A stretch of 32,000 nucleotides of DNA from an uncultured Muribaculaceae bacterium (GCA_965231035.1 OZ246409.1:601101-633100), one strand, 5' to 3'. Shown: positions 1 through 23,686, counted from the first letter of the stretch. Numbers and translations: made by a program. The notes: generated from the sequence alone by a model not told the origin.

Positions 1-41
1 TTGTTCTTTGTGCACAGGCTTAAACATCAAGGTTTTTATAA

Positions 42-1531
<1,490 letters not shown>

Positions 1532-1770: not shown

Positions 1771-1785
1771 TTTTTATTGATGAGG

Positions 1786-1841: not shown

Positions 1842-2079
1842 ATGTTCCCTAGGAATTTTTGGAATCTGCTTTTTATAAGTAATTTTGTTAATCGGTTTTT
1901 ATGTCGCAAATCAAAGAAATTTGATTTGTTGAACATCGTAATATAATCTCAAAATATCTTTCTGAAAAAGAGAGTAATCTCGAAAGAGATAATTCAATTA
2001 GAAAAAAAGAACAAGAATCAACTGAATGAACATTTTTAAATGTTCAATGCTTAAAAAACTCATTAAGTAATTTTTTAGA

Positions 2080-2094
2080 CTTACGCTTCAAGCA
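2080..2094 (+). other. 5' arm of putative 23S processing (RNase III-type) stem
   Basis: CTTACGCTTCAAGCA pairs 14/15 with TGCTTGAAGAGTAAG at 4898-4912, bracketing the 23S rRNA. Confidence 0.6.
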
Positions 2095-2100
2095 TAAGAT

Positions 2101-4847
<2,747 letters not shown>

Positions 4848-4897
4848 ATTTTTTGTGTTTGATTTTGCAGCAGTACGCTGCTGTAAAATCAAACCAT

Positions 4898-4912
4898 TGC
4901 TTGAAGAGTAAG
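4898..4912 (+). other. 3' arm of putative 23S processing stem
   Basis: Complementary to 2080-2094. Preceded by a strong hairpin GATTTTGCAGCAG-TACG-CTGCTGTAAAATC (4861-4890). Confidence 0.6.
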
Positions 4913-4966
4913 TTAATAAGAAGATTCTTGATAGTTTGAGATTATAAACGATGTTTATTGTGTTTC

Positions 4967-5085
4967 GTTCTGGTGATTATAGAGCGGGAGTCACCCTCTG
5001 TTTCCATCCCGAACCAGACAGGGAAAACCCGTATCGCCGATGGTACTTTGGCTTAAGCTACGGAAGAGTAGGTCGTCGCCAGAAC
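4967..5085 (+). rRNA. rrf: 5S ribosomal RNA
   Basis: 119 nt. Helix I GTTCTGGTG / CGCCAGAAC. Conserved CCCGAAC, GCCGATGGTACT and AGAGTAGGTCG blocks. Confidence 0.9.
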
Positions 5086-5517: not shown

Positions 5518-5964
5518 ATGAATAAAGAAACAATGTTGAAAATTCCTTTTAAAGGAATTGAAGAATTTCGTTGTCCTATGGGTGCTTTTTATCTTGTAAA
5601 AGATTCAGATGGTAATCAACCTTTTTTTGATACAGTTTTTTACGAACTTAACTGTGTGAAAGAAAATAATCTGTCGAAAAGAAACGCTTGTTTAGTCGAT
5701 AAAATTATAAAATGTCCAAATTTTTCAAAAAAGAGCGCATGTTGGGAAATTTTTAAAGGACATTATAACGAAGCTGAATTGGATAAGGACACAGAAATTT
5801 TAAAAAATGATTTATATGGGGTTCTAAGTTTTACTTATGCAGATGCAGAATTTTCTGTTGATGATATTAATCATATACGAGAAGTTGAACGAATATTTAA
5901 AAATGAAAGACTTATAAGAAAATATTTGATTCGTTCAAGAAAACAAAATTCTGTAAATAGGTAA
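5518..5964 (+). CDS. Hypothetical protein (148 aa), AT-rich orphan
   Basis: Open frame 12 nt after the previous gene, followed by the duplicated terminator module. No recognisable motifs. Confidence 0.6.
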   Translation: MNKETMLKIPFKGIEEFRCPMGAFYLVKDSDGNQPFFDTVFYELNCVKENNLSKRNACLVDKIIKCPNFSKKSACWEIFKGHYNEAELDKDTEILKNDLYGVLSFTYADAEFSVDDINHIREVERIFKNERLIRKYLIRSRKQNSVNR

Positions 5965-6127: not shown

Positions 6128-6574
6128 ATGGTCTCTCAGAAAGTTACGCAAATGATTAAGTGTGATAATTGTAAATTTTTTAAGAATGGGTGTCCATTGG
6201 GAAACAGTAATGATTTTTGTTTTCCTGTTTTTATAGAATGTTTATATAACAATTTTTTTAAAAAAGAAGAAATTGAGAATATTAAGGAAATTTGTGATAA
6301 TCGTTTTTTGTATAAAGAAGGAAATATAAGTACAATTGAAGTTTATAAAATTTTTGACCGCATAGCACAAAAAAATAGATACTTAAATACTCCGGGACAA
6401 ATAACTGCATACGCATTAACATATCTTTCTATGTCAGAAATAGTGACAATATTACCATTGTATGAAAGTACAGATTTGTCCATAAGTGAAATTATGCCTT
6501 GGGAGGCTTTAAAAGAAAAAAGTAAAAAAATATATATAATTAATAGGCAAAACAGAAAACAGCCTGTTTATTAA
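6128..6574 (+). CDS. Hypothetical protein (148 aa) with Cys-rich N-terminus
   Basis: AAAGG 8 nt upstream of the ATG. N-terminus CDNCKFFKNGCPLGNSNDFCFPVFIEC. Very AT-rich. Confidence 0.6.
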   Translation: MVSQKVTQMIKCDNCKFFKNGCPLGNSNDFCFPVFIECLYNNFFKKEEIENIKEICDNRFLYKEGNISTIEVYKIFDRIAQKNRYLNTPGQITAYALTYLSMSEIVTILPLYESTDLSISEIMPWEALKEKSKKIYIINRQNRKQPVY

Positions 6575-7149: not shown

Positions 7150-7364
7150 AACAGTAGTAATTTTATCTTAGAATATTGGTCAAGTCAACGAGTCATCATT
7201 GATTTGTGTCAAGAATAAATTTTAAAAATTTATATTGCTAAGTTTTAAAAAAGTTCTACGATTCTCGCAGCTTGATAACATTGTTAAAATTAATCTATTA
7301 ATTTATGAGTAGTTTTTAATGTGTTACCGCAAGTCAGTACAAAAATAAAAATGGAGAATAATAC

Positions 7365-7805
7365 ATGAAAAAAGTACTTGTGTTCGGATTGGTAGGAATC
7401 GTATCAGCAATGTCTGCAAACGCAGCTGTTGTTACGAAAAAAGAAGTTGCAAAAACAGAAACAGCTAAACCAGCTGTTGTATTGGAAACAAAAAAAGTAG
7501 AAACAACAAAAACAGTCCCTGTTACAAAAGAAAATACAAAGGTAGCAACAGTAAAAGCAGCTTCTACAAAAGCAGCCCCAGTAACAAAAGGAACCGTAAA
7601 AGCAGAAACTGTTAAAGCAACCCCAGTAACAAAAGGAACCGTAAAAGCAGAAACTGTTAAAGCGGCTTCTACAAAGGAGAACAAAGCAGTAAAAGAAACT
7701 ACAAAAGTAGCAAAAACAGAAAAAACTGCTGTAAAAGAAAAAACTGATTCTAATAAATTAAAAGAAACAGTTTTGTCAAAAACTGAAAATACAACAAAAA
7801 AGTAA
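7365..7805 (+). CDS. Exported Lys/Thr/Val/Ala-rich repetitive low-complexity protein (146 aa)
   Basis: GGAGA RBS. Signal peptide MKKVLVFGLVGIVSAMSANA|AV. The rest is K/T/V/A/E repeats (PVTKGTVKAETVKA x2). Followed by a + strand terminator. The antisense ORF 7334-7816 is its shadow. Confidence 0.75.
   Translation: MKKVLVFGLVGIVSAMSANAAVVTKKEVAKTETAKPAVVLETKKVETTKTVPVTKENTKVATVKAASTKAAPVTKGTVKAETVKATPVTKGTVKAETVKAASTKENKAVKETTKVAKTEKTAVKEKTDSNKLKETVLSKTENTTKK
7576..7663 (+). repeat. 45-bp tandem duplication (2 copies) inside the Lys-rich gene
   Basis: 7576-7618 is identical to 7621-7663 (43/43 nt). The 45-nt period equals 15 codons. Confidence 0.9.
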
Positions 7806-7822
7806 TTTTTGATCATATAATT

Positions 7823-7878: not shown

Positions 7879-7962
7879 CAGTGATAACAAGGTGTATAGT
7901 GTGAGGCATTAGTCTCAATATTGGCGGTTATTAAGCATCTGTTGAATTATTTGGAGATAAAT

Positions 7963-10044
7963 ATGAAAAGTCGTAATTTCGGCGAAACACTAAAAAATGC
8001 TACTGGTGCAGTAGTTCTGCTGGCAGCAGCGTTTTTTGTATGTTCTACCATATTGTCTATGCGTGCGGTATTTGCAGATCCAATTGCACCGCAGGTTCAG
8101 TACACAGCTGGAACTCCGCAGGCTCAACGCGCCGGATCACAAAGTGCCAGAACAACTCGTGCAAATAGTAATATTTCAAATTCTGACACAACAGATTCCA
8201 GAACTGTAAAAGGAAGAACCGTAGTTTCACGTTCTTCACAATCAAATACTTCAGTTGTTTCAAGATCTGTTGTTGCACGTTCTGGTGCTGTAACTTCCAG
8301 GGCAACACAACAAAACAGATCTGTTCGTGCCAGAGTTGCTGCTATGCCAGTTACACAGCAAGGTGCTTCGGATTCTTCAAGAGTTTCTTTAACAGGCAGT
8401 GCAATCCGTGGCAGCAAAAGCACAACATCAACCACAACATATAATTATTTAGCAAGCAAACTGTATACTGGAAATTATTCTAATATTATTGATACGTCTA
8501 CTGGTTTGATTTCTGCTGACGCATATAACAACTGTATGCAAAGCTATTATTCTTGTATGGATGAAATTTGCACGGCACGCAGCTCGGCACAGCGTCGTTG
8601 TGCTTGCGCTGGTCGTGTAAAAACATTTGCTGAAGCAGAATCAAAATTAGAATCAGCAAATGAAGAACTGATAACAGTTTCTGGTGAATTGGCTTTGTTG
8701 ATTGCTAATAAGGGTAAAGACATAAGTTCGGCATTTGCGTTGACTGATGCTGAAAAAGTTATGAACTGTGTATCTTATAAAGATATGGCCGAAAAATACA
8801 AAGGTGGAACAGATTTAGACAATAATGATGTTGATGATAAAAAAGAATGGTGTTACAACCATATGATTTATGAAGATGCATGTTCAATGCCATCTTATTG
8901 CTCTTCTTCTGGTAATAATTTTGGGTTTGATGTTTCTAACTTGGATGGTTCTGGCAGTGATATTTTAGCTTCTTTGAAATCTTGGGCCGAAGCAAAAGAT
9001 AAAACATTAACAATTACAACCAGTGATGACAGCGCTTTGAGCAGTGCGTACAGCACAATCAGTTCTATTGTTAGCAATATGAGCGGATTAAGCAGCAGTT
9101 TATCAAGTTCTACAACTACTACGGATTCCTTGGCCGAAACTTGGGGATATGAACTGTTTGAATATGCACACAATAATGTTTGCAATCGCGTTTTAGATTC
9201 TTGCTTTAATGGTATCTATGAAGCTTGCGGAACACCACCGTCCACGGGTCGTGATTGTCCAAATGGTAAAACAGCTTGTCCTTATAACTATAACACATAC
9301 ATAACAGTAACAAACACCGGTACTTATGAGTTGAACTTTGTTACAGGAAGCAGTGGAACCAGTTCCAGCTCGGCGGCAACTTGCTATGGTTATTCCAGCA
9401 GCAGTACAGATCCATACGAAGATTTGCGTGGACCGGTTGCTGATGCACGTCGCAGCATACTGCAAAAATATGCTTTGGATGCAAATGCTGATTGTGATTC
9501 TTATGGCGAACAGTTAAAAACAACTGCGCAAAATATTGGGTATCAAAAAGTTGCAGCACAACAGGCTTTGCAGAAAAAACGTTTAGAATTTGCCCAAGCT
9601 GAAGAAACAAAGACTTTGACAGATGCGACAACTGCTGGCACAAACTTTAATGAATGTATAAATGAAATCTATGATTGCTATACAACGCAAGATACTGCAA
9701 ATCCGTCTTGGAGCACATCTCGTATAAAAACATATTGTGCACAGTTGGCCAATGCTCCGCATTGTTATGAAACTATGATATGCAATCCTTCGGGTGCTCA
9801 GTTCAAAGCGGTTATAGACAAGTTAGATAGTGCCACATGTAACTGGAGTCAGGATTACACAGAAAATACTTGCCGTAATATCGTAACGTTGAACGAAATT
9901 ATGACCAGTGCATCAAGTACAGCCGCAACAAGCCTGCCTGCCGAAGGTTTAACAGGTGATTCAGCAGCAATCCGTGAAATGTGCTTGCAGAATGCGATTG
10001 GTACCGGATCCGATACGTTACGAAACTGGACCGCAACACCATAA
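7963..10044 (+). CDS. Large Cys-rich exported protein, paralog 1 (693 aa), unknown family
   Basis: GGAGA RBS plus ATG at 7963; the TTG at 7921 is less likely. Signal/anchor ...MRAVFA|DP. S/T/R/V-rich basic low-complexity region with VVSRS-type repeats. Then CMQSYYSCMDEICTARSSAQRRCACAG, coiled-coil-like stretches, a Ser-rich linker and many further Cys. Clear similarity to 10941-13244. Confidence 0.8.
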   Translation: MKSRNFGETLKNATGAVVLLAAAFFVCSTILSMRAVFADPIAPQVQYTAGTPQAQRAGSQSARTTRANSNISNSDTTDSRTVKGRTVVSRSSQSNTSVVSRSVVARSGAVTSRATQQNRSVRARVAAMPVTQQGASDSSRVSLTGSAIRGSKSTTSTTTYNYLASKLYTGNYSNIIDTSTGLISADAYNNCMQSYYSCMDEICTARSSAQRRCACAGRVKTFAEAESKLESANEELITVSGELALLIANKGKDISSAFALTDAEKVMNCVSYKDMAEKYKGGTDLDNNDVDDKKEWCYNHMIYEDACSMPSYCSSSGNNFGFDVSNLDGSGSDILASLKSWAEAKDKTLTITTSDDSALSSAYSTISSIVSNMSGLSSSLSSSTTTTDSLAETWGYELFEYAHNNVCNRVLDSCFNGIYEACGTPPSTGRDCPNGKTACPYNYNTYITVTNTGTYELNFVTGSSGTSSSSAATCYGYSSSSTDPYEDLRGPVADARRSILQKYALDANADCDSYGEQLKTTAQNIGYQKVAAQQALQKKRLEFAQAEETKTLTDATTAGTNFNECINEIYDCYTTQDTANPSWSTSRIKTYCAQLANAPHCYETMICNPSGAQFKAVIDKLDSATCNWSQDYTENTCRNIVTLNEIMTSASSTAATSLPAEGLTGDSAAIREMCLQNAIGTGSDTLRNWTATP

Positions 10045-10940: not shown

Positions 10941-13244
10941 GTGAAAAAACTTTTCTTGTATTCTTTTCTGATTAGTATTTGCACATCTAATGTTTTTGCT
11001 GATAACTCTGTCGTTGCTTCGCGTGCAGTTCCTTCTGCTGCATCTCAGACCGAGGATAATAATTATTCAGAACCCTCACGTGCTGTGGTAAACAGAAATG
11101 CTGTTGCGTTTCCAGTAGCAGTTGCAAAAACAACAGATTTAACCACAAAAGAAAATGACGATGCAGTTGTATCAAGAAACACAACAATGGTTCAGCAAAA
11201 TGACAACGCACGCAGCACATCAGTTGTTACTAAACCTACAATATCAAGATCAGTTTCTGCTGGAAATTCAGAAAGCACAAGACAAGAGCTTGAACAAACA
11301 GTACGGACTGTTGGTCGTAATGCTCGCGTAGAGTCTGCAAGCATAAATGAAAATCCGGCCCTTCGTCGTATGGGTATAACTCTTCGTCCATCCACAGCAG
11401 AAGTTGGAGGTCGTGCAACTATCGGTAATACAGGTGTTCAAACTGGTTCAAACTTTAACCCTGGGAAAAGCCGCAGTGTTCAAAATCGTGCCGCTGCAAG
11501 TGCGCCAACCAAAGAATCAATTGCTGAGGCAACACAACGTTTGCAACAAACAGCAGAACTTAATAAGTCATGCCAAGAACAATACAATGATTGTATGGAT
11601 CAGTTCTGTTCGGTTATTGACGCAAATCAAAAACGTTGTTCTTGTTCGGCTAATCTTTCCAGATACACCAAGGTTGAATCAGCTGTAAAAGAAGCAAATT
11701 CCGAATTGAATGATGTTGCACAAAGAATTCGTTATGTCGGTTTATCCGCTGATGAAATTCGTGCGATTATGAATTCAACCGAAGCTGAAAAAGTTCTGGA
11801 TCAAACTAAGGACACTTCGCAATCAAGGAATATGTTAGATGAAATTGAAAGTTTGATTAAAAATCCAACAAGTGCAACTTCATCTTCTTCAAGTAATATT
11901 TCAACTGGATTGGATATGGATTTGGACTTTTCATCCAGCGGTTCATCAACAGATTTATTCAGCTTGGATTTATCATCTGGCAGCTCGTCAAGTTTTTCTA
12001 ATTTACGTGGTACAGATCTTTACAGTGCTGCAAAGAAACGCTGTAATACTGTTTTGACACAATGCAAAACTGCTGGTGGTACACCACAACAAATAACGGG
12101 AAATTACGATTTGGCAATTGATAAAGATTGTATTGCCTATGAACAAGGTTTAACAAAGATGAATGAAACCTTGAAATCTAATGTTCGCAGTGCAAACCAA
12201 ATGTTACAAAAAGCTAGATTGGCAGTTTTGCAAAACAAGAATCAGTATGATGCCAAAGGTTGCATATCTGCGTTGAATACCTGTATGGTTGACGATATGG
12301 TCTGTGGGTCAGATTATAAAAAGTGTCTGGATCCAACAAAAAAATACATAGACGAAAATGGCAAAGTTGTTTTGGGACAAAATATTTCAAATATCATCGC
12401 CTTTATGGACGGATATAATAATGCAGAAATAGATTCAACTTATTTGACTGGTGCCATGGCTACTTCATATGAACCCAGCTCTTGCATCAGTGCCGATGGA
12501 AAATGTGTTGCAAAGTATCTTTTGGAAAAAATTGGTACCGGCGCAACAATCAAAGATGGTGGATTATGCAGACCTGTATTGGATAAATGTCAATACTATA
12601 CATACGATTCAAACAGTAATTATGAAAAATATAATGATATTGTTGTTAATTATATTCAACGTGCGATGGTAAATATTTATGCTGCGCAACAGAAGATAAT
12701 TTCTGATTACGCGTCCAGTTGCATGGTTGATATCGCAACTTGCTATAACCAGCAGGTCAGCCAAGTTAACACTTGGTCTTCGACCGCCAGTGTCAGCAGT
12801 ATTTATAATGTTATGCGTGGTGCATGCAGAAATGTTGCTTTGACTTGTTCTTATGCAGTATTTGCAAATGATGCTACTTCTTGTCCAACTTCAGCCCCAG
12901 ATACATGTATAAACAGTATATCGCAAATGTTTTATCAATCATTATTGTGTCCAGATAATTCTACTTATCAATCAACACAGCATGCAACAGATAACAATGG
13001 AACAGTTGTTGGTTATGTTAATGAACGTTGTACGTGTAATTCTGGATACAGTGTATGGAGTGGCACTTGCACATCTTCGTGCGTTCTGGGTGAATATCGT
13101 AGTTCTTTGGGTGTTTGCACCAGCTGTCCAATAGGCACATACGGTGGTGGCGTAACAGGTGGAGTAGAGGCGAGCAGTTGCACAACTTGTGCAAGCGGTA
13201 CAACAATCTCTACGGGTTCTACAGATGAAGGTGATTGTGAATAA
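10941..13244 (+). CDS. Large Cys-rich exported protein, paralog 2 (767 aa), with C-terminal GCC2/GCC3 (ephrin-receptor-like) type Cys repeats
   Basis: GTG start. Signal peptide MKKLFLYSFLISICTSNVFA|DN. Low-complexity region with VVASR/VVSRN motifs. CQEQYNDCMDQFCSVIDANQKRCSCS aligns with paralog 1. Ser-rich linker. C-terminus CTSCPIGTYGGG...CTTCASGTTISTGSTDEGDC. Confidence 0.8.
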   Translation: MKKLFLYSFLISICTSNVFADNSVVASRAVPSAASQTEDNNYSEPSRAVVNRNAVAFPVAVAKTTDLTTKENDDAVVSRNTTMVQQNDNARSTSVVTKPTISRSVSAGNSESTRQELEQTVRTVGRNARVESASINENPALRRMGITLRPSTAEVGGRATIGNTGVQTGSNFNPGKSRSVQNRAAASAPTKESIAEATQRLQQTAELNKSCQEQYNDCMDQFCSVIDANQKRCSCSANLSRYTKVESAVKEANSELNDVAQRIRYVGLSADEIRAIMNSTEAEKVLDQTKDTSQSRNMLDEIESLIKNPTSATSSSSSNISTGLDMDLDFSSSGSSTDLFSLDLSSGSSSSFSNLRGTDLYSAAKKRCNTVLTQCKTAGGTPQQITGNYDLAIDKDCIAYEQGLTKMNETLKSNVRSANQMLQKARLAVLQNKNQYDAKGCISALNTCMVDDMVCGSDYKKCLDPTKKYIDENGKVVLGQNISNIIAFMDGYNNAEIDSTYLTGAMATSYEPSSCISADGKCVAKYLLEKIGTGATIKDGGLCRPVLDKCQYYTYDSNSNYEKYNDIVVNYIQRAMVNIYAAQQKIISDYASSCMVDIATCYNQQVSQVNTWSSTASVSSIYNVMRGACRNVALTCSYAVFANDATSCPTSAPDTCINSISQMFYQSLLCPDNSTYQSTQHATDNNGTVVGYVNERCTCNSGYSVWSGTCTSSCVLGEYRSSLGVCTSCPIGTYGGGVTGGVEASSCTTCASGTTISTGSTDEGDCE

Positions 13245-16097: not shown

Positions 16098-17453
16098 CTA
16101 TTTCTTTTTATCATCGCCTCGAAAAGCCTTCCACCAGTCTTTACCTGTTTTAACAGTGTTGCCCCAAACTTTTTTAATATCGTCGTTAACCTTTTTACCG
16201 AATCCTTCGTCAACTGTGCCGCCAATTTTTTTTGCAAAATCCCCAGCCTTGGTCGCCAAGTATGCAACCAAGCATCCAACAATCAGAACAGTCATAAAGT
16301 CATCATTTTGCAATGTCGGAACAGTTGCAGCCATATCTGCATCAACCACACCTGATAATATTGCTGCACATACCGCGATTATTACCGATAAAGATACAAA
16401 ATAAATCATCGCGTTTATAAATCGTTTTATCTGGGAATCCAGGGAAAATGTTTTTGCGTTAAATAATTCCAAGAATCCTTTGAATATTGTTCCGGCATAT
16501 GTATCGTTTGTAGTGCTGCCGCCACCAGTACCAAACGCTTCGATCGGGGCACCAAATGCTGAACTGGTTGAAGGCTTTCCGGAAAAGCACTGGGAAATAG
16601 CAGTAAAAGGCAACATCATAACACCCAAGAATAAATCTGCAATTACTGAAAAAGCCATAATTGCAAACTTCCAAATATTATAAATAAATATCACAACAAA
16701 AACGGCACCCGCAGTAAATGTAAATGCACTGGATCCAATTCCCGCCAGCATCCATTTCCATCCCGCAGCCACAGCAGTATAAAAGAATCCAGAAAGACGA
16801 GTAGGCAGACATAAAAGGTTCGAAACCTGTGACGAATCCATAATTGCAAATTGTGAATGACTGGATGAAACATAATTATGAATTGCGGCACAAGTATCTG
16901 GTAACGAAACTCCAATCGTGGATGTAACCGAATTCAAAATCAAATCAGACAAATATGTCCCAATCGTTATAACCGGACCCATAATCCACATAAACAGCTG
17001 AGCAGGACCTTGTTCTATTATTAAAATCCAAATTGTAATCAGAACTGCTTTGCGAATAATATCTTCGACCAATTCGCGGGATTTTTGTGTTGCCTTCATC
17101 ATTTGATATGCTTCCAACATTATCCAAAATGCAAACATCACAATTAAAAATATTGTAACAAATCTGGTCAAGGATTGTTCCAAGACATTGCTGATCATTG
17201 ACATACCACCAATAAATGCACGACCAACGCGAGCTTCGATCGGAACGTAATCTTTGACCAATACATTTTTTTGAAATTCTGATTGGAAAGAAGAAATGTC
17301 GTCAGTTAAATTATTCACAAATAATTCGCGATTATGATCAGTTGCCCAAACGCCAAAATTTCCAACATCACCAGATGGCATGTTTGATGCGGCAAATGCA
17401 CCGTTGCCCAAAACAAAAACAAAACATAAAAGAGTAATTATCTTTTTAAACAT
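16098..17453 (-). CDS. Polytopic membrane protein, array member D (451 aa); TrbL/VirB6-like architecture
   Basis: Signal peptide MFKKIITLLCFVFVLGNGAFA|AS. Several long hydrophobic spans. ...EQGPAQLFMWIMGPVITIG helix. Cys pair in a loop. C-tail ...IKKVWGNTVKTGKDWWKAFRGDDKKK. The start lies 1 nt after the stop of member C. Coding status is high confidence; the family assignment is inferred. Confidence 0.6.
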   Translation of the reverse strand: MFKKIITLLCFVFVLGNGAFAASNMPSGDVGNFGVWATDHNRELFVNNLTDDISSFQSEFQKNVLVKDYVPIEARVGRAFIGGMSMISNVLEQSLTRFVTIFLIVMFAFWIMLEAYQMMKATQKSRELVEDIIRKAVLITIWILIIEQGPAQLFMWIMGPVITIGTYLSDLILNSVTSTIGVSLPDTCAAIHNYVSSSHSQFAIMDSSQVSNLLCLPTRLSGFFYTAVAAGWKWMLAGIGSSAFTFTAGAVFVVIFIYNIWKFAIMAFSVIADLFLGVMMLPFTAISQCFSGKPSTSSAFGAPIEAFGTGGGSTTNDTYAGTIFKGFLELFNAKTFSLDSQIKRFINAMIYFVSLSVIIAVCAAILSGVVDADMAATVPTLQNDDFMTVLIVGCLVAYLATKAGDFAKKIGGTVDEGFGKKVNDDIKKVWGNTVKTGKDWWKAFRGDDKKK

Positions 17454-17454
17454 T

Positions 17455-18912
17455 TTACTTTTTCTTACTTGCTTCTTCGTTTGCTTTTGTTATTTGTTCG
17501 GTAATTTTTTCAGGTGCGCCCCAAACCCTTTTTCCCATATCTTTTATCCATCCACCATAATCAAAAGGTTCTTTTTTATCTTTGGATTCTTCACTGCCAC
17601 CCAGGAATTCATCAATTTTTGGCGATACCACATAAAAATACAGCAGGTATATTCCAAACATCATCAGCAAGAATTCAAATCCATTTCCCATAAAGTCAAA
17701 TGCACCTGGATATTTTCTTTCTACATCTGCACGGCTGGCGGTAAAGCAGTTTTTGAAAGTTGTTTTATCAATTTGGCCGTCTGTTGTGGCGACCTGTTCG
17801 CATTTCGAAAATACAGCCATCACAGATAATGCCTGGTCATCCATATTTTTGCTGTCTTCGGTAATCAATGGTGGCATAATTGAATTGTACCCGTCATTTG
17901 GTCCTGGAAAATATTCGTCTGCAGCAAAGGATACGATTGCATAAGTTATGATAACCTTTAATGTAATTGCCACAATTCGAACAGCTGATTTAACCAATAT
18001 ATTTATTGCGCCGTTAACCACCCCAGATGCCAGTTGCCAAGTACCTTCGAATGCACCAGCCGCAATAATCAAAGGCAGAAAGATTATCAGAAATATCAAT
18101 TTTATAATAATAGAAAGCACTTGGAAAAACAGGTCGAATCCAATAATCAAAAACATAATTACCAGTGCCAATCCCGCAATCCAGGTAAACGCACCACCGC
18201 CCATTCCCATCCAAGAATAATTCATCAATGAAAATCCACCAGCCGCACCAGCCAGCATAACCGTATTCAAATTGCCCATTACGCACATAAAAGGTTTTAA
18301 TACAGGATTTAAAATATCATCATTTTGAACAGTTGTTCCGCACTGGGCAGAATCAGAAATACCACTAGCAGCCATAGAAAGCTCGGACCCAACAAACATC
18401 ACAGGTGTAATTGTTATATTTGTAATTTGTTTTAATACAGTTGTTCCACCAAATCCCAGAACACCCAACAATGCACCCGCCATCATAACCCGAACAGCTT
18501 GTTTCCATACTTTGTCGAACCAAGGTTTAAATTCAAGCTTTTTTTCAGATGCATCCAATTTTGCATTTTTCTTGGCTGCGTCGAAAATATACATTGCGGT
18601 CGTATAAAATAAAAATATTCCAAATCCAATTGCTAACAGTATCCAGATATTGCTAATCATAGCATTCCAGAATTGTTCTGCGGTACTGCCGATTGTTGCA
18701 AAAAGCTTTTCAATATACCCGCAAAGAAAACATCCGTTGGCACTGGCAATATCACCATTTTTAACACCAACTGCACCCAGAAAACTGTTCAGACTGGTAT
18801 AAGTTATTGCAGCCCCACCAATCGAAGAAGACAAATACCAAATACCCAACCCCAACGCAGTTGCGCCCATAATAAATTTTACAGCAATCTGAATCAGTTT
18901 TGCTTTTAACAT
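17455..18912 (-). CDS. Polytopic membrane protein, array member C (485 aa); TrbL/VirB6-like architecture
   Basis: N-terminal anchor, CFLCGYIEKLFATIGSTAEQFW module, many hydrophobic spans, ITPVMFVG helix, loop Cys pair, C-tail ...GKRVWGAPEK...EEASKKK. The ATG abuts the stop of member B (TAAATG). Confidence 0.6.
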   Translation of the reverse strand: MLKAKLIQIAVKFIMGATALGLGIWYLSSSIGGAAITYTSLNSFLGAVGVKNGDIASANGCFLCGYIEKLFATIGSTAEQFWNAMISNIWILLAIGFGIFLFYTTAMYIFDAAKKNAKLDASEKKLEFKPWFDKVWKQAVRVMMAGALLGVLGFGGTTVLKQITNITITPVMFVGSELSMAASGISDSAQCGTTVQNDDILNPVLKPFMCVMGNLNTVMLAGAAGGFSLMNYSWMGMGGGAFTWIAGLALVIMFLIIGFDLFFQVLSIIIKLIFLIIFLPLIIAAGAFEGTWQLASGVVNGAINILVKSAVRIVAITLKVIITYAIVSFAADEYFPGPNDGYNSIMPPLITEDSKNMDDQALSVMAVFSKCEQVATTDGQIDKTTFKNCFTASRADVERKYPGAFDFMGNGFEFLLMMFGIYLLYFYVVSPKIDEFLGGSEESKDKKEPFDYGGWIKDMGKRVWGAPEKITEQITKANEEASKKK

Positions 18913-20124
18913 TTACTTTTTTTCTTCCTTCTTTTCTTCTTTTTTATCTTCTTTCTTTTCACCACCAAAAACGACTTTGCTGACATCTTTGACAGTTTTT
19001 ACAACATTTTCAGTTACCTTTAATGCATCATTTGCCAGACCTTCATTTAATGATTTCTCTTCTTTGACATCAAATACCCCCATAACCATTTTTGTAACTT
19101 CGCCAACCTGGTCGGACAAGAAATTAACAACATAAACCATAACCACACAACCCATCAAAGTCATTGCCGCCAAATTGTCATCGGATAATGCGCCTGCGAA
19201 TATTTGACCGCTGGTTATCATTTGCATCAATTCTGTTGTAGATGTTCCGCTGTTTGAAAAGAACTTGGCAATTATAACCATAACAACTGTATAAGTTAAA
19301 ACCGCTGCGGACAATGCAATTATCGAATTAATGATATTTTTAATCTGACCAGTCCCAAGTTCTTTGCCCAAAGATTTTATCCAGTCAGGTGCATCGGAAT
19401 TTTTGAAAGCGAACATAACAATAGATAATGGGAAAAAGAATGCAAAAAATGTCATTGCAACAATTATGTCTACAAAGTAAAAACAGAATTTTATAAATAT
19501 CTTAAAAAATTCGTAAACCAGATAAAGTCCCATAAAGAACATTAAAATATGTTTTACCAATGTTCCAACACCCGTTAATGCAACCCAAGAAAAAGCATTA
19601 TCCATAACCGCAATACCCAGTTTAATATATGATTGTAACTGGGTTATCGTTGTCTTCATCAGCATTATAATTGTGTTTCTTAATTCTGGTCTGTAAAAGC
19701 CGGTATCATCCATTTCTTTGGGCTGGTATGTGACTTTTTCATTAACTGTTTCATTGTTTGTGTTAACCATACTTTGCGTATATGCCAATGTCATTTGGGC
19801 CACTGGTTCAAAAGTTATTGTTGAAACAAATCTTGGTAAATAAACACCTAATCCCAACAAAGCAAAAACAAACAACGAATTAATCAATACAGGCTTGATA
19901 GATTTTTGATACATTGGGTCTTCGACACCGCCTTTGATATTTTTCCAAACGGCATACAAAATATAAAAAGCCAGGATTAAACAAAATATCAAAATACAGA
20001 ACAATGAAAACTGACGATACACTGCGGCCGCAGCAACAGAAATAACTTGGAACAGGCGATCAAAAACAGGGCAGCCCCAACACTGCACAGATCCATCAAC
20101 TAAACCGTTTAACCATCCGTTCAT
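18913..20124 (-). CDS. Polytopic membrane protein, array member B (403 aa); TrbL/VirB6-like architecture
   Basis: N-terminal CWGCPVFDRLFQVISVAAAAVYRQF module, about 6 hydrophobic spans, LPRFVSTITFEPV helix, C-tail ...GGEKKEDKKEEKKEEKK. ATGA overlap with member A (20121-20124). Confidence 0.6.
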   Translation of the reverse strand: MNGWLNGLVDGSVQCWGCPVFDRLFQVISVAAAAVYRQFSLFCILIFCLILAFYILYAVWKNIKGGVEDPMYQKSIKPVLINSLFVFALLGLGVYLPRFVSTITFEPVAQMTLAYTQSMVNTNNETVNEKVTYQPKEMDDTGFYRPELRNTIIMLMKTTITQLQSYIKLGIAVMDNAFSWVALTGVGTLVKHILMFFMGLYLVYEFFKIFIKFCFYFVDIIVAMTFFAFFFPLSIVMFAFKNSDAPDWIKSLGKELGTGQIKNIINSIIALSAAVLTYTVVMVIIAKFFSNSGTSTTELMQMITSGQIFAGALSDDNLAAMTLMGCVVMVYVVNFLSDQVGEVTKMVMGVFDVKEEKSLNEGLANDALKVTENVVKTVKDVSKVVFGGEKKEDKKEEKKEEKK

Positions 20125-21380
20125 TTCTTTTTTATCCAGCCAGCTGCTGTTCCTATTTTTTTGCCAAAGTCTTTAATGTTTGTCCAAGTATTCTTTGGAT
20201 CATCTTTTACCTTGTTATACATTGCATCTGACCCTGGTGCATATTTGGTTATCATTCCACGTGTCATATTAAATATTCTGAACATCAAATAGAATGTCAG
20301 TATTGTTGATAACCATAAAATAGAATGTTGTCCAAATCCCATTGCACTGTTGGCAACTGTTGGAACATTGCTGGTGGCTGAGCCGTTTGCAGCAACAACG
20401 AATACAGAAGTGTTCCATTGGAACAGCGCGCGAATTATTGCAATATTTATAACCAGTATGAAAGAGCTGGCAATCATAGTAATAACCAGTTGCTGTAATG
20501 ATTTTATAATTCCTTGGAATGGTGGCCATGGATCAATCCATTTATTGCTTTGCTTGGAAACCCAAACCAGAACATTAAAGGGATATAAAACCAGCGACAT
20601 ACCAAAAGTAAATATTCCCTGGATAATAAGCATAGCCATAAAGAGATTACTGGCAACAAAGGTCCAAATTAACAATACTCCGGTTATTAAATTCAAGAAA
20701 TCTTCACCACCATGCGGAACCAGCGTCATTAATCCAGCCAACCCCTTGTTCACAAAATCAAAGCCTCGTTTTATAACTTGGTTATTGGCATGTGAAAGGG
20801 TTGAAACCGGTTGAACCAAGAAGTCACAACTGGACTCTGAAATCCAGCCTTTGTCCAAAACAGATTTTGGGCATTCAATTTTTTTTGCAGGCGCAGTATT
20901 TGTGTTTATGCTGTCCGTAATATTTTCTGTATAGATTGCGCCGAATTTCAAAAATGGATCAACAATAAAATCTGTCACGTAAATTGGTTTTATCTGTAAC
21001 AAAATAGTTGCAGCAATTATTGCACGCATTGCGGGTTTCAAAACTTGGTCTTGGATCATTTGCATACCGGTTATTTTTCCTTCCCACATTTCGCCACCGG
21101 TTTTATCGCTGAACCCAAATAAAGAGAGCCAATTTTTTGGGAAATACATTTTTACAAAATAAAGCCCAATTGAAACACCCAAAATTCCCCAAATAAAAAC
21201 ATAGATAATTCCATCACCATTACCAACAAAGAATTCGTATCCACCAGTTGCAACAGACATCAATGCATCCAAAACTGTTGGAACAATTGGTGCCAGATTC
21301 AAACTGTCAACAATACCCCAGCTGGCATGAGCAGGAGTGATAAATAACAAAGCAAGAAGAGAAAATAACCATTTCTTCAT
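20121..21380 (-). CDS. Polytopic membrane protein, array member A (419 aa); TrbL/VirB6-like architecture
   Basis: Signal peptide MKKWLFSLLALLFITPAHA|SW, then VPTVLDALMSVATGGYEFF amphipathic module, hydrophobic spans, VDPFLKFG helix, loop Cys pair, C-tail ...PKNTWTNIKDFGKKIGTAAGWIKKK. Confidence 0.6.
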   Translation of the reverse strand: MKKWLFSLLALLFITPAHASWGIVDSLNLAPIVPTVLDALMSVATGGYEFFVGNGDGIIYVFIWGILGVSIGLYFVKMYFPKNWLSLFGFSDKTGGEMWEGKITGMQMIQDQVLKPAMRAIIAATILLQIKPIYVTDFIVDPFLKFGAIYTENITDSINTNTAPAKKIECPKSVLDKGWISESSCDFLVQPVSTLSHANNQVIKRGFDFVNKGLAGLMTLVPHGGEDFLNLITGVLLIWTFVASNLFMAMLIIQGIFTFGMSLVLYPFNVLVWVSKQSNKWIDPWPPFQGIIKSLQQLVITMIASSFILVINIAIIRALFQWNTSVFVVAANGSATSNVPTVANSAMGFGQHSILWLSTILTFYLMFRIFNMTRGMITKYAPGSDAMYNKVKDDPKNTWTNIKDFGKKIGTAAGWIKKK

Positions 21381-21387
21381 GAATTTA

Positions 21388-21396
21388 ATTATACCA
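21388..21396 (-). promoter_or_regulatory. Extended -10 promoter (TGGTATAAT on the minus strand), 7 nt before the ATG of array member A
   Basis: The minus strand reads TGGTATAAT-TAAATTC-ATG. No SD, a leaderless layout. Confidence 0.55.
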
Positions 21397-21416
21397 TAAA
21401 ATCGAGAGTCTTTTTA

Positions 21417-21425
21417 TGATATAAT
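21417..21425 (+). promoter_or_regulatory. Extended -10 promoter (TGATATAAT) for array member E
   Basis: A perfect TGnTATAAT 41 nt upstream of the ATG at 21467. The same 9-mer sits upstream of mliC, mraY and murG. Confidence 0.55.
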
Positions 21426-21466
21426 TCAGGTTGTGTTAACATAACCTAGTATGAACAAATGAAAAG

Positions 21467-22786
21467 ATGAACAAATTAAAAAAGTTTTGGATAGTTTTTT
21501 TATCCTTCCTGCCTTTTACGGCTGGGGCGGCTGCACCATTGGTTATTGGCGGTATCGCAGGTATTGGTGTAATTGCAGGATTTTCAATATATCGTTCATT
21601 TGCGCCAGTTAATCCTGCTGATGCTTTATCTTTCTTTTCAACATGTTGGTCGTGTCAGATGTTTTCAGACATTATGGCGACTATGTCGGGTTTGTTACCG
21701 CGTGCGTATCATGCAATTGGAAATGCAATAATTCCAATATGCATAGGACTAACAGCTGTTTGGTTTGGCTGGAATTTGTTGGCGGGATACATTGGTGCAA
21801 ACACAGATAAAAAGTGGGCGTCAGAGCCATGGTCAATGGCCGGTGATTTTGGGACGCATATAATAAAACTGGGTTTTGTGATTGCTTTACTTGCATTTCC
21901 ATTGCCCAGATTGATAACGAATGTTGTTATTGAACCTGTATTTAATGTTGGATTGTCACTTAATCGTGTTGTGTCAGGTGATGAAAAATTTTCAGAATGC
22001 GTTGTTGCAACAGCCTTGGCAGATCCAGTATCCATTGATTCGCGTGCGGCTGAAAGCGGTGCTTATTCACCAAAGCTCCGTCATAATTTGGCGTGCGAAT
22101 TGGCAGGTGTTCACCAAATGACAGGATTGGGAATGACCGTTGGTTGGACAATGCTGAATATGTCTTTTAATTCAAAATATATGCACAAAATTCTTTGGAA
22201 TGTACCGTTCTTTCCAAATATTCCGATTTTCTTTATGGGTTTGTTAATATTGTCATTGTTCTTTTTTGCATTGTTACCCATACCACTATATTTTCTGGAA
22301 ATTTTTATAGAACTATCAATTAATTTAATAATGTTGCCTTTGTTTTTATTGGGGTGGTTATTCAAGGGCTGGTCAATTATCCCGGGGAACGGTGCAGAAT
22401 CAATCCAAGATACAATAAATAAAGTCATCAAAGGCACAGCGGGCATTGCTTTGATTGGTGTTTTTGTTACTTTTGCGATAATGTTTTTAAATTCTATTTT
22501 TGGAAACTGGCAGGGTGCTTCGGCCTTACAAGCAGCATTTGCAAATAACGATTCGACTATTTTGATGGATGGTTTGATGATGAATAATGACAGTCTGGTT
22601 ACAATTATTTTGATGGGTGTATTTATTGCGATGTTTATGGTTAGTATACGTTCGCTTATAGAAGCCTTATTCAGTAAAGTAGGAATTCCATCAAAGTATT
22701 ATGATACTGCAAAAAGTGATCTGCAAAAAATATGGGATAATATGAAAACTTGGTACATTTCGGTCAGCAAGGCTGCAAAAAAATAA
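21467..22786 (+). CDS. Polytopic membrane protein, array member E (439 aa), divergent from A-D; TrbL/VirB6-like architecture
   Basis: N-terminal anchor, CWSCQMFSDIMATMSGLLPRAYHAI module, LPRLITNVVIEPVFNVG (aligns with member B), loop Cys pair, many hydrophobic spans, C-tail ...LQKIWDNMKTWYISVSKAAKK. Confidence 0.6.
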   Translation: MNKLKKFWIVFLSFLPFTAGAAAPLVIGGIAGIGVIAGFSIYRSFAPVNPADALSFFSTCWSCQMFSDIMATMSGLLPRAYHAIGNAIIPICIGLTAVWFGWNLLAGYIGANTDKKWASEPWSMAGDFGTHIIKLGFVIALLAFPLPRLITNVVIEPVFNVGLSLNRVVSGDEKFSECVVATALADPVSIDSRAAESGAYSPKLRHNLACELAGVHQMTGLGMTVGWTMLNMSFNSKYMHKILWNVPFFPNIPIFFMGLLILSLFFFALLPIPLYFLEIFIELSINLIMLPLFLLGWLFKGWSIIPGNGAESIQDTINKVIKGTAGIALIGVFVTFAIMFLNSIFGNWQGASALQAAFANNDSTILMDGLMMNNDSLVTIILMGVFIAMFMVSIRSLIEALFSKVGIPSKYYDTAKSDLQKIWDNMKTWYISVSKAAKK

Positions 22787-22837: not shown

Positions 22838-22846
22838 TGGTATAAT
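22838..22846 (+). promoter_or_regulatory. Extended -10 promoter (TGGTATAAT), 8 nt before the ATG at 22855
   Basis: TGGTATAAT-TCAAATCA-ATG with no SD. Confidence 0.45.
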
Positions 22847-22854: not shown

Positions 22855-23364
22855 ATGAAGTCGGTTCCGATTCTTTATTGGTCACGTAAAACCAACAATG
22901 ATACTGAGTATCAGTTGGCTCGTAAAACGATAAGCTCTGTGCATGGTGTTATGCCAGAAGTTATCGCAGGCGAATACGATATTGTAGAATTATTGTCAAA
23001 AAATCCTGACAGCGTCCTTTATTATCCTGTATTTTGTGGTTCGACTGGCTGGTGGGGCGAATTTTTGGGTGGTCAGGCATCGGTTACAGATAAAATAATA
23101 ATATCCCCTGAATGTCAATTAATGGCCATAGAAATGGGTAGCATCCAACCAAAAAAAGGTCAAAACCAATTATTGGCAGCCGAAATATATCCAACCAGTG
23201 GATTTTTTAAGAAAATGAATTCATCTGTTGCAACAGTTGTTGATATGTTGGCAACTGATGCTGGAACTATCCTGGCATTGTTTTCTGGCAAAAGCCATAC
23301 ACAGCTGGTAAATATTTTAGAATCGACAGGAAACTCCTATTTGGGGTGTATCGGTCGCTATTAA
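22855..23364 (+). CDS. Hypothetical protein (169 aa)
   Basis: Open frame with composition typical of the neighbouring housekeeping genes. No motif I recognise. Confidence 0.6.
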   Translation: MKSVPILYWSRKTNNDTEYQLARKTISSVHGVMPEVIAGEYDIVELLSKNPDSVLYYPVFCGSTGWWGEFLGGQASVTDKIIISPECQLMAIEMGSIQPKKGQNQLLAAEIYPTSGFFKKMNSSVATVVDMLATDAGTILALFSGKSHTQLVNILESTGNSYLGCIGRY

Positions 23365-23424: not shown

Positions 23425-23450
23425 CGGTGCGCTAAATAAAAGGGTAAAAA

Positions 23451-23663
23451 ATGAAAAAAGCTATTCATCCCGCATATCATGAAATCAATGTCACAACGAC
23501 AGACGGGAAAACTGTAAAAATGTATTCTTCGGTTAAGAAAGATTTGGTCTTGTCTACCGATAATTTGAATCATTCCGCTTGGACTGGTCAACGCAGCAAT
23601 GCTGGTGACAAAGGTCAACGTGCTGCCGACTTTAAAAAGAAGTTCGGTGGATTTAAATTCTAA
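23451..23663 (+). CDS. rpmE: 50S ribosomal protein L31 (Cys-less type)
   Basis: MKKAIHPAYHEINVTTTDGK...HSAWTG...FKKKFGG. 70 aa. Confidence 0.9.
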   Translation: MKKAIHPAYHEINVTTTDGKTVKMYSSVKKDLVLSTDNLNHSAWTGQRSNAGDKGQRAADFKKKFGGFKF

Positions 23664-23686
23664 TTTATTTCTGTATTGGAATCGAT

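What the first reader, a model, noticed from the sequence alone, without database searches (positions are those of the whole stretch)
16098..22786. Orphan array of five paralogous TrbL/VirB6-like polytopic membrane proteins (four translationally coupled, one divergent)
Seen in the sequence: four minus-strand genes run 21380->16098 with an ATGA overlap (20121-20124), a TAA-ATG abutment (18912/18913) and a 1-nt gap (17454). A fifth gene is transcribed divergently from an 86-bp control region.

The five products (403-485 aa) are visibly paralogous.
- All have several long hydrophobic spans.
- All share a helix ending x-P-[VF]: GPVITIG, ITPVMFVG, FEPVAQM, VDPFLKFG, IEPVFNVG. B and E align over LPR[FL][VI][ST]..[IT][FI]EPV.
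- An N-terminal amphipathic module (VLDALMSVATGGYEFF, VFDRLFQVISVAAAAVYRQF, YIEKLFATIGSTAEQFW, MFSDIMATMSGLLPRAYHAI) precedes the first core TM segment.
- All have a hydrophilic Lys-rich tail.

Inference: a signal peptide or anchor, then an amphipathic segment, TM, a large loop, clustered TMs and a hydrophilic tail is the architecture of TrbL/VirB6 channel subunits. Tandem amplification of virB6-like genes is established for Rickettsiales rvh systems (five rvhB6 copies in Rickettsia). Here the proteins are much shorter. One copy is inverted. The neighbours are uvrD and an orphan rather than virB3/virB4. So this is either a dispersed, remodelled T4SS inner-membrane module or a new membrane-protein family.
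Basis: partly seen in the sequence, partly recalled or inferred. Interest (0 to 1): 0.85.

Follow-up and report, generated by a model that had tools for sequence, protein, structure and literature searches.

The report
Five-gene array of divergent VirB6-like proteins
A tiny-genome gut bacterium (Candidatus Enterousia) carries five ancient, distinct copies of a membrane protein that looks like VirB6, the five-fold base of type IV secretion machines; standard annotation misses them and no other secretion genes lie nearby.

Summary
Five ORFs (A–E, 403–485 aa) lie at the stated coordinates, with the stated ATGA overlap, TAA-ATG abutment, 1-nt gap and 86-bp divergent region. Pairwise BLAST paralogy is weak, but profile comparison joins all five (68–97% through E; unrelated membrane-protein controls ≤0.5%).

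No Pfam or NCBIfam model recognises them. They do align at 95.6–99.6% hhalign probability with distant relatives, two of which pass Pfam TrbL/VirB6. Those relatives match canonical VirB6 on the P…F…W motif (73%, E 3e-5). AlphaFold models of C and E each return R388 TrwI/VirB6 as top PDB fold hits.

The organism is Ca. Enterousia (order Rs-D84, genome about 0.85–0.96 Mb). The cluster is syntenic in 74 of 83 related loci. Four other lineages also carry five-copy arrays, with gene order apparently matching E-D-C-B-A, always among housekeeping genes.

Best reading: five non-redundant VirB6-like subunits of one hetero-oligomeric envelope complex, possibly a heteropentamer. No VirB4/B11/D4 lies within about 52 kb or in 1.6 Mb of related loci. 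Whether a T4SS exists elsewhere in the genome could not be tested. This is a new variant of a known kind.

The parts
16098..17453 (-). Gene A (451 aa), last gene of the D-C-B-A operon. Fastest-evolving paralog (orthologs 39-75% identical). Signal-peptide-like N-terminus, no CxxC, invariant loop Cys pair C188/C215, invariant P160 and P282, Lys-rich tail.
   Evidence: A-E 92.5%, A-D 92.3%, A-B 89.8%; 97.0% to the profile of TrbL-positive relatives
17455..18912 (-). Gene B (485 aa). Invariant CxxC (C61/C64), loop Cys pair C191/C210, P170 and P280. Clear positional orthologs at position 4 of the arrays in other lineages.
   Evidence: 134, 74 and 69 bits to gene 4 of L093, L090 and L092; 98.0%
18913..20124 (-). 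Gene C (403 aa). No N-terminal signal segment, invariant CxxC (C15/C18), P107 and P232, motif FPLSIVMFAFKNSDAPDW. An AlphaFold model was built for this protein.
   Evidence: top 5 PDB fold hits are TrwI/VirB6; matches gene 3 of the other arrays; 99.6%
20121..21380 (-). Gene D (419 aa), first gene of the four-gene operon. Most divergent paralog, no CxxC, loop Cys pair C170/C185, P142 and P267.
   Evidence: A-D 92.3%, D-E 68.5%; D HMM hits array members of other lineages at 5e-7; 95.6%
21381..21466 (.). 86-bp AT-rich divergent control region. It holds two back-to-back extended -10 boxes: TGGTATAAT on the - strand, ending 7 nt before D's ATG, and TGATATAAT on the + strand, about 41 nt before E's ATG.
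   Evidence: read directly from the sequence; promoter function is inferred, not shown
21467..22786 (+). Gene E (439 aa), divergently transcribed. Hub paralog, closest to relatives outside Enterousia. Invariant CxxC (C60/C63), loop Cys pair C178/C210, P157 and P291. Second AlphaFold model.
   Evidence: E HMM hits P0203 at 1e-14 and P0202 at 5e-13 with the whole-library Z; top PDB fold hits are TrwI/VirB6; matches gene 1 of L093, 110 bits; 99.5%
22855..23364 (+). Gene F (169 aa), a soluble protein always found next to E in Enterousia (63-82% identity). Probably has its own TGGTATAAT -10 box. No detectable homolog in the arrays of other lineages, so whether it belongs to the system is uncertain.

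Best explanation
What it is. A-E are five ancient, non-redundant paralogs of a divergent subfamily of the VirB6/TrbL fold. VirB6 is the polytopic inner-membrane protein whose pentamer forms the base of the type IV secretion stalk.

How it probably works. The five are most likely made in matched amounts: D-C-B-A are translationally coupled, and E is driven from the same 86-bp control region. They would then assemble into one hetero-oligomeric inner-membrane/periplasmic platform. A 1:1:1:1:1 heteropentamer is the simplest model. Periplasmic parts would be stabilised by the conserved Cys pair and the CxxC. In Ca. Enterousia, a gut bacterium with a genome under 1 Mb that is thought to depend on other cells, the platform would form the core of a T4SS-like envelope channel for exchange with a partner or host cell.

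Shown versus inferred. Shown here: the genes, the coupling signals, paralogy, conservation, synteny, the VirB6-like fold and the transitive sequence link, and recurrence of five-copy arrays. Inferred: hetero-oligomer formation, stoichiometry, disulfides, promoters, and any secretion function.
For: Fold.
- AlphaFold models of C (pLDDT 62) and E (pLDDT 64) were built from separate ortholog sets plus some shared paralog rows.
- Each returns R388 TrwI/VirB6 chains as top hits among 350,542 PDB chains, with prob 0.97-1.00 and TM up to 0.50 on the target. The best unrelated hits have prob 0.3 or less.

Sequence.
- All five families hit a profile of distant relatives at 95.6-99.6%.
- Of those relatives, P0206 and P0215 pass the Pfam TrbL gathering score (32 and 34 bits against 25.9), and five more score 21-25 bits.
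- That profile matches a six-sequence canonical VirB6 profile at 73%, E 3e-5, over GP-x7-F-x2-TR-x5-W.
- The non-significant best alignments of B, C and E to VirB6 all place their invariant Pro on VirB6 P179.

Non-redundancy and age.
- Each paralog is conserved at 39-82% identity, and the cluster is intact in 74 of 83 loci.
- There are about 900 homologs each for C and E.
- Five-copy arrays recur in L084, L090, L092 and L093. In L093, genes 1, 3 and 4 are E-, C- and B-type, and genes 2 and 5 lack the CxxC, as D and A do.

Stoichiometry and coupling.
- VirB6 is a pentamer in R388, and DotA is pentameric in Dot/Icm (PMC9259494, PMC12857230).
- The start/stop junctions indicate translational coupling.

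Lifestyle.
- Rs-D84 genomes are under 1 Mb, lack most biosynthesis and standard transporters, and are proposed to be obligate symbionts or parasites (PMC12306168).
Against: - No direct Pfam or NCBIfam TrbL/VirB6 hit for any of the five proteins, their orthologs or their consensus sequences.
- Direct family-versus-VirB6 hhalign gives 1.3% or less.
- Fold matches are modest (E 3e-3 to 6e-3, TM 0.3-0.5) and come from medium-confidence models. Long helical bundles can match by chance.
- No VirB4, VirB11, VirD4 or VirB8-10 was found next to any of the seven non-Enterousia arrays examined, in about 52 kb of this genome, or in 1.6 Mb of related loci.
- The published Rs-D84 genome survey mentions no T4SS.
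- L091 has four copies, not five, and Anaplasmataceae T4SSs work with four VirB6 genes, so 'five genes, one pentamer' is not a rule.
- Positional orthology of D and A rests on weak scores and on the CxxC pattern.
Confidence: 0.55

Rival explanations
1. VirB6-derived but independent of a T4SS. The five proteins descend from VirB6 but now form an autonomous membrane complex, such as a channel or scaffold for uptake or cell-cell contact. It would work without VirB4, VirB11 or VirD4 ATPases and without the outer-membrane core.
For: - None of the seven non-Enterousia arrays examined (L084, L090-L095), nor the Enterousia loci, sits next to any recognisable T4SS gene. All lie among housekeeping genes.
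- In other lineages the arrays travel with their own conserved accessory genes (a 2-TM protein of about 80 aa, the acc370 family and the acc500 family). These have no Walker A motif and no Pfam match.
- The Rs-D84 survey reports no secretion system and no standard transporters.
Against: - The rest of each genome was not searched, and Rickettsiales show that T4SS genes can be scattered in islets (PMC2653234).
- No VirB6 homolog is known to function outside a T4SS.
- The accessory genes are absent from the Enterousia neighbourhood.
Confidence: 0.28
2. A new polytopic membrane-protein family unrelated to VirB6, for example a transporter or a membrane-biogenesis factor. The resemblance would be generic to long hydrophobic helical bundles.
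For: - Direct profile tests against TrbL/VirB6 fail.
- Fold-match E-values are only about 1e-2 to 1e-3, with TM 0.5 or less, on models of pLDDT about 62-64.
- The Pfam TrbL hits on the bridging proteins cover mainly the TM-rich half of the model (positions about 80-199 of 215) and barely exceed threshold.
Against: - Two paralog models both pick TrwI/VirB6 first out of 350,542 chains at prob about 1.0, while other helical membrane proteins score prob 0.3 or less.
- MraY and FtsW control profiles score 0.1-0.5% against these families and against VirB6.
- The bridge-VirB6 alignment falls on the known VirB6 P...F..TR...W motif rather than a random TM stretch.
- Seven distant relatives independently score on TrbL at mutually consistent positions.
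Confidence: 0.12
3. Redundant or alternative VirB6 isoforms rather than co-assembling subunits. The paralogs would be used one at a time, as homopentamers, for different partners, substrates or conditions.
For: - Copy number varies: four in L091, four in Anaplasmataceae.
- E has its own promoter side and could be regulated separately.
Against: - D-C-B-A are translationally coupled, which argues for co-production.
- All five types are retained in 74 of 83 loci in genomes under strong reduction.
- Paralog types and order appear conserved between distant lineages.
- Two paralog types (A and D) have lost the CxxC in both Enterousia and L093, which suggests fixed, specialised roles.
Confidence: 0.05

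Closest known systems
Rickettsiales rvh type IV secretion system, RvhB6a-e (amplified VirB6 genes; Gillespie et al. 2009, PMC2653234)
   Same: - Four to five tandem, highly divergent VirB6-type genes (about 80% divergent from one another in Rickettsia), kept despite genome reduction in a host-dependent alphaproteobacterium.
- The VirB6/TrbL domain averages about 413 aa, comparable to the 403-485 aa here.
- Related arrays outside Enterousia (L084, L090, L092) have 'extended' members of 550-860 aa, as RvhB6 does.
   Different: - RvhB6 proteins are recognised by PF04610 and COG3704. These are not.
- rvhB6 genes directly follow virB3-virB4a. These arrays never do.
- The host lineage is order Rs-D84, not Rickettsiales.
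- The family has its own signature (CW.C motif, loop Cys pair), whose presence in RvhB6 was not checked.
- The C profile found only 100 proteins in 1.84 billion representatives, mostly fragments and unnamed proteins.
TrwI/VirB6 of plasmid R388 (PDB 7O3V, 8RT9, 8RTD; Macé et al. 2022, PMC9259494)
   Same: - Best structural match of both models.
- All-helical protein with N-proximal membrane helices followed by further long hydrophobic helices.
- TrwI forms a pentamer at the stalk base, which matches the number of paralogs here.
   Different: - TrwI is a single gene forming a homopentamer and is about 340 aa.
- Sequence identity in the structural alignments is 9-13%.
- TrwI is encoded within a complete T4SS operon.
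- TM-scores are only 0.3-0.5.
Agrobacterium tumefaciens VirB6 / Pfam TrbL (PF04610)
   Same: - Polytopic topology with a large central periplasmic loop.
- Conserved Pro-(x7)-Phe...Trp motif after the loop (VirB6 P179, F187, W197), mirrored by [LFY]P[LF]x6F...W in B, C and E.
   Different: - No significant direct sequence or profile match.
- The proteins here are about 100-190 residues longer.
- They carry the extra N-proximal CxxC module and a Lys-rich C-terminal tail.

Membership tests
TrbL/VirB6 (Pfam PF04610, COG3704) | Sequence match to the family HMM at or above the curated gathering score (25.9 bits) | tested here: not met
   No TrbL hit at E<=1 for A-E, for the Enterousia E orthologs scanned as members of A3, or for the HMM consensus sequences of all five families. 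NCBIfam also gave none. Only distant relatives pass: P0206 at 32.0 bits and P0215 at 34.2 bits.
TrbL/VirB6 (Pfam PF04610, COG3704) | Profile-profile homology to canonical VirB6 proteins | tested here: inconclusive
   Direct hhalign of the family profiles against a six-sequence VirB6 profile gives 0.3-1.3%. Transitively, the families match the bridge profile at 95.6-99.6%, and the bridge matches VirB6 at 73.2%, E 3e-5. The VirB6 profile was small and dominated by Rhizobiaceae. HHpred against Pfam or PDB profiles was not available.
TrbL/VirB6 (Pfam PF04610, COG3704) | VirB6 three-dimensional fold (TrwI-like bundle of long helices) | tested here: met
TrbL/VirB6 (Pfam PF04610, COG3704) | Polytopic inner-membrane topology with a large central (periplasmic) loop and at least 4-5 hydrophobic helices | tested here: met
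   A hydropathy scan finds one or two N-proximal TM segments, a loop of about 80-100 residues, then a cluster of three or more TM segments in all five. The models are all-helical. An invariant Cys pair in the loop of A, B, D and E fits a periplasmic location. The location itself is inferred.
TrbL/VirB6 (Pfam PF04610, COG3704) | Conserved Trp after the post-loop TM helix (the 'essential Trp', PMC2653234) | tested here: inconclusive
   A Trp follows the invariant Pro within 11-18 residues in B (W292), C (W248), D (W281, W285) and E (W297, W302). No equivalent is invariant in A. Equivalence to VirB6 W197 rests on non-significant alignments.
TrbL/VirB6 (Pfam PF04610, COG3704) | Encoded with, or at least in the same genome as, VirB4 and other T4SS core genes | not testable with these tools
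   Neighbourhood tested and negative. Pfam on all window ORFs, 10 kb beyond each edge, and tblastn of Atu VirB1-B11 plus the T4CP against 1.6 Mb of related loci (no hit with E below 0.05) found nothing. The remaining roughly 800 kb of the genome could not be reached.
Rickettsiales rvh-type VirB6 amplification | Four or more tandem, mutually divergent VirB6-type paralogs conserved across the lineage | tested here: met
   Five paralogs, intact in 74 of 83 loci. Five-copy arrays also occur in L084, L090, L092 and L093.
Rickettsiales rvh-type VirB6 amplification | Array directly downstream of virB3-virB4 (islet A) | tested here: not met
   The flanks here are uvrD and F/rpmE. In other lineages an unassigned 2-TM gene of about 80 aa precedes the array, with no VirB4.
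Rickettsiales rvh-type VirB6 amplification | Organism belongs to Rickettsiales | tested here: not met
   Related genomes are named Candidatus Enterousia, which GTDB places in order Rs-D84 (PMC12306168). Some MAGs carry the loose NCBI label 'Rickettsiales bacterium'.

The most novel reading that the evidence does not exclude
The five genes encode the five different protomers of a single heteropentameric VirB6-type ring. The subunit order would have been fixed since before Rs-D84 and several other reduced-genome lineages diverged. The ring would work without the canonical T4SS ATPases and outer-membrane core, as a minimal cell-to-cell conduit used by a bacterium with a genome under 1 Mb to feed on a partner. 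If so, it would also supply a structural reason for the long-unexplained VirB6 amplification in Rickettsiales.
Probability: 0.15. Interest if true: 0.9.

Novelty: new variant of a known kind. Interest (0 to 1): 0.66.

Why it matters
**An unannotated family in a minimal genome.** VirB6 is the least understood core part of type IV secretion. Why Rickettsiales keep four to five very different copies has been an open question since 2009. This family is invisible to Pfam and NCBIfam, yet it takes up five of roughly 900 genes in a minimal gut bacterium.

**A testable hypothesis.** The family is conserved in hundreds of metagenome assemblies from human, ruminant, bird, rodent and termite guts. It recurs as a five-copy array, with an apparently fixed order, in other low-GC lineages. 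VirB6 is a pentamer, so 'five distinct subunits, one ring' can be tested directly with multimer prediction and co-purification.

**Relevance to lifestyle.** It also flags a candidate host- or partner-interaction machine in Rs-D84. The lifestyle of this group is unknown, and its genomes lack ordinary transporters. If the genomes truly lack VirB4, VirB11 and VirD4, this would be the first VirB6-type assembly working outside a T4SS.

Tried and rejected
**Searches that found nothing**
- Pfam and NCBIfam scans of the five proteins, of E-family members and of family consensus sequences gave no TrbL hit. The only near-threshold hit was EI24/CysZ on C (30 bits against GA 32), judged compositional.
- HMM searches of the C profile and the broad E-type profile against PDB sequences found nothing relevant.
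- tblastn of E and of the TrbL-positive P0206 against 72,556 plasmids gave nothing useful, so this is not a plasmid-type TrbL.
- hhalign of each family against Atu VirB6 alone, and against a six-sequence VirB6 profile, was not significant.

**Queries that underperformed or were unavailable**
- A homolog search seeded with an alignment of 18 distant relatives returned only P0203, because the candidate list saturated.

**F and the accessory genes**
- F has no Pfam, NCBIfam or PDB match and no homolog in L084, so it is not treated as a core part.
- The accessory families of other lineages (acc370, acc500, the 147-aa, 185-aa and small 2-TM proteins) have no counterpart in six-frame translations of the Enterousia loci, no Walker A motif and no Pfam assignment.

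**Literature**
- Searches for a T4SS in Enterousia or Rs-D84 found none. The 2023 Enterousia genome paper is not held, and the mSphere paper has no supplements held.

**Readings rejected**
- A mobile element or conjugative island: the context is core housekeeping, GC is even, and synteny is fixed across species.
- Chance ORFs or pseudogenes: about 900 conserved full-length homologs exist for each of C and E.

Full report
**1. The observation**

| Gene | Coordinates | Strand | Length |
|---|---|---|---|
| A | 16098-17453 | − | 451 aa |
| B | 17455-18912 | − | 485 aa |
| C | 18913-20124 | − | 403 aa |
| D | 20121-21380 | − | 419 aa |
| E | 21467-22786 | + | 439 aa |

- The junctions read as described: D/C overlap in ATGA, C/B abut as TAA-ATG, and B/A are separated by one base.
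- D and E diverge from an 86-bp region of 26% GC.
- That region holds two back-to-back extended −10 boxes. TGGTATAAT on the − strand ends 7 nt before D's ATG. TGATATAAT lies on the + strand. This is read from the sequence; promoter function is inferred.
- All five proteins are polytopic with Lys-rich tails.

**2. Paralogy**

- BLASTP gives C-E 2e-10, B-E 3e-6, A-C 1e-6 (C-terminal part only), and C-D, B-C and A-B about 5e-4. Other pairs are not significant. phmmer finds only C-E.

I therefore collected orthologs of every gene from 83 related loci and compared family profiles by hhalign.
- C-E 96.7%, A-E 92.5%, A-D 92.3%, A-B 89.8%, B-E 85.4%, D-E 68.5%. The alignments are collinear over 290-370 columns.
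- Controls: the soluble neighbour F scores 0.1-0.2%, and the unrelated polytopic families MraY and FtsW from the same loci score 0.1-0.5%.
- All five also match one profile of distant relatives at 95.6-99.6%.

Paralogy is therefore real but ancient. Invariant residues across the ortholog families are:
- a second Pro after the TM cluster in all five;
- a Cys pair in the central loop of A, B, D and E;
- an N-proximal CxxC in B, C and E.

**3. Organism and conservation**

- The window carries an rRNA operon and core genes: dnaQ-like, uvrD, suhB-like, PBP1A, mraY, ftsW and murG.
- It lies at about 722-754 kb of an 848,746-bp JGI contig.
- Related genomes are Candidatus Enterousia and unnamed gut, rumen, chicken and termite Alphaproteobacteria. 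They include a circular 958,618-bp chromosome.
- Enterousia belongs to GTDB order Rs-D84. Its genomes are under 1 Mb, lack respiration, most biosynthesis and standard transporters, and are proposed to belong to obligate symbionts or parasites. That paper mentions no secretion system (PMC12306168).
- C and E each have about 900 homologs. All are unannotated and none has a Pfam domain.
- The cluster F-E⇄D-C-B-A is intact in 74 of 83 loci, and the rest are cut by contig ends. Median ortholog identity is 49% for A, 61-65% for B to E, and 69% for F.

**4. What the proteins are**

Direct family searches are negative.
- Pfam and NCBIfam give no TrbL/VirB6 hit for the proteins, for E-family members, or for family consensus sequences.
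- Profiles find nothing among PDB sequences.
- tblastn against plasmids finds nothing.

Three indirect lines agree.

*(i) Structure.*
- The AlphaFold model of C (27 orthologs, pLDDT 62) has TrwI/VirB6 of the R388 T4SS as its top five PDB hits: E 2.9e-3, prob 1.00, TM 0.46 on the target.
- The model of E, built from E orthologs plus paralogs (pLDDT 64), gives the same result: ranks 1-4 and 6, E 6.2e-3, TM 0.47-0.50. Unrelated helical proteins have prob 0.3 or less.

*(ii) Distant relatives.*
- An exhaustive profile search of 1.84 billion representatives found only 100 hits.
- Among the distant full-length hits, P0206 and P0215 pass the Pfam TrbL gathering score, and five more score 21-25 bits.
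- Where the aligned stretches overlap (P0203, P0206, P0207, P0216), they are mutually consistent: TrbL positions about 80-195 correspond to C residues about 170-300.
- The E-family HMM reaches several of these proteins with whole-library significance: P0203 at 1e-14 and P0202 at 5e-13.

*(iii) Link to canonical VirB6.*
- A profile of those relatives matches a six-sequence canonical VirB6 profile (pTi VirB6, AvhB6-type, Acidiphilium, Acetobacter) at 73%, E 3e-5.
- The match falls on the VirB6 motif GP-x7-F-x2-TR-x5-W.
- Direct Enterousia-versus-VirB6 alignments are not significant (1.3% or less). Even so, those of B, C and E all put their invariant Pro on VirB6 P179.

I conclude, at about 0.8 confidence, that this is a divergent subfamily of the VirB6 fold. 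It is not a member of Pfam TrbL as that family is currently defined.

**5. The array is older and wider than Enterousia**

- Context look-ups of distant relatives show five tandem paralogs in L084 (GC 30%), L090, L092 and L093. L091 (GC 52%) has four, and L094 and L095 hold partial arrays.
- All of these sit among housekeeping genes: sufBD, uvrB, asmA, recA, secF and lpxK.
- In L093, gene 1 is E-type (110 bits), gene 3 is C-type (66 bits) and gene 4 is B-type (134 bits). Genes 2 and 5 lack the CxxC, exactly as D and A do.
- In L090 and L092, genes 3 and 4 are again C- and B-type.
- The Enterousia order E|D-C-B-A therefore looks like an ancestral 1-2-3-4-5 array with gene 1 inverted.
- These other arrays carry their own conserved accessory genes: a 2-TM protein of about 80 aa, plus the acc370 and acc500 families. 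These have no Walker A motif and no Pfam match, and they are absent from the Enterousia loci.

**6. Is there a T4SS?**

- No VirB4, VirB11, VirD4 or VirB8-10 is detectable in the window, in the 10 kb beyond each edge, in any related locus, or beside any distant array.
- The remaining roughly 800 kb of the genome could not be searched with the tools available.
- T4SS genes are scattered in islets in Rickettsiales, although virB6 stays next to virB3-virB4 there (PMC2653234).
- The question is therefore open.

**7. Mechanism**

- VirB6 forms a pentamer at the base of the stalk, on which VirB5 and the pilus assemble (PMC9259494). DotA/IcmX is pentameric as well (PMC12857230).
- Five anciently fixed, non-redundant and translationally coupled paralogs fit a hetero-oligomeric, possibly heteropentameric, VirB6-type platform best.
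- The conserved Cys pair and the CxxC suggest disulfide-stabilised or redox-active periplasmic parts.
- All of this is inference. Rival readings are an autonomous VirB6-derived complex, an unrelated new family, and alternative isoforms. They are scored in the rival-explanations section.

**8. Comparison and verdict**

- The closest known system is the Rickettsiales rvhB6 amplification. The phenomenon is the same, but the sequence family, the gene neighbourhood and the taxon all differ.
- I file this as a new variant of a known kind.
'Orphan' is shown only locally.

Noticed in passing
window 41-5084: The rRNA operon (16S, tRNA-Ile(GAT) at 1694-1770, 23S, 5S) has only tRNA-Ile in the 16S-23S spacer. 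The tRNA-Ala usual in Alphaproteobacteria was not detected by ARAGORN or Rfam.
   Followed up: no
window 7921-10044 and 10941-13244: Two large ORFs (707 and 767 aa) have signal-peptide-like N-termini and no Pfam family above threshold. They were BLAST-linked to each other in one run and flank rplU/rpmA. Relatives have counterparts (L002: 807 and 770 aa; L089: 693 and 762 aa). They could be surface or secreted proteins.
   Followed up: partly
window 5518-5964 and 6128-6574: Two adjacent Cys-rich 148-aa ORFs with no Pfam match lie just downstream of the rRNA operon. L089 has a third small ORF (117 aa) beside them.
   Followed up: no
window 7547-7663 (inside the overlapping ORFs 7334-7816 on the - strand and 7365-7805 on the + strand): A 45-bp tandem repeat (2.1-2.4 copies, 87-98% matches) gives a repetitive peptide (…FTVPFVTG…). 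Which strand, if either, is coding is unclear.
   Followed up: partly
window 22838-22846 and 21388-21396: The same extended -10 box, TGGTATAAT, lies 7-8 nt upstream of the ATG of both F and D. If these boxes are real promoters, the mRNAs would be leaderless or nearly so.
   Followed up: no
L001 9592-9969: In one termite-gut relative, a 125-aa gene with Pfam PF05635 (23S rRNA-intervening-sequence protein) is inserted between the D and C orthologs. It breaks the D/C overlap seen elsewhere.
   Followed up: no
L090 5811-7044; L092 2316-3541; L093 4710-5913: Beside the VirB6-like arrays of other lineages lies a conserved trio: an RHH_4 protein of about 70 aa, a 147-aa protein weakly similar to SUKH-1/SMI1 immunity proteins (E 3.5e-4, below threshold), and a protein of about 185 aa. 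This could be a toxin-immunity pair, which would hint at a contact-dependent antagonism role for the array.
   Followed up: partly
L084 4967-5227; L090 9734-10000; L092 6061-6327; L093 9768-10004; L091 9771-10004: A small 2-TM protein (77-88 aa) with a basic tail immediately precedes the VirB6-like array, or sits inside it in L091. Its position and size recall VirB3, but no Pfam VirB3 match was found. No counterpart was found in Enterousia.
   Followed up: partly
window about 23450-23665 (L088 2989-3201) and L088 6606-6884: Small conserved genes fell below the ORF-length cut-off used: rpmE (L31, 70 aa) between F and suhB, and an MliC-like lysozyme-inhibitor gene (92 aa) after PBP1A.
   Followed up: no
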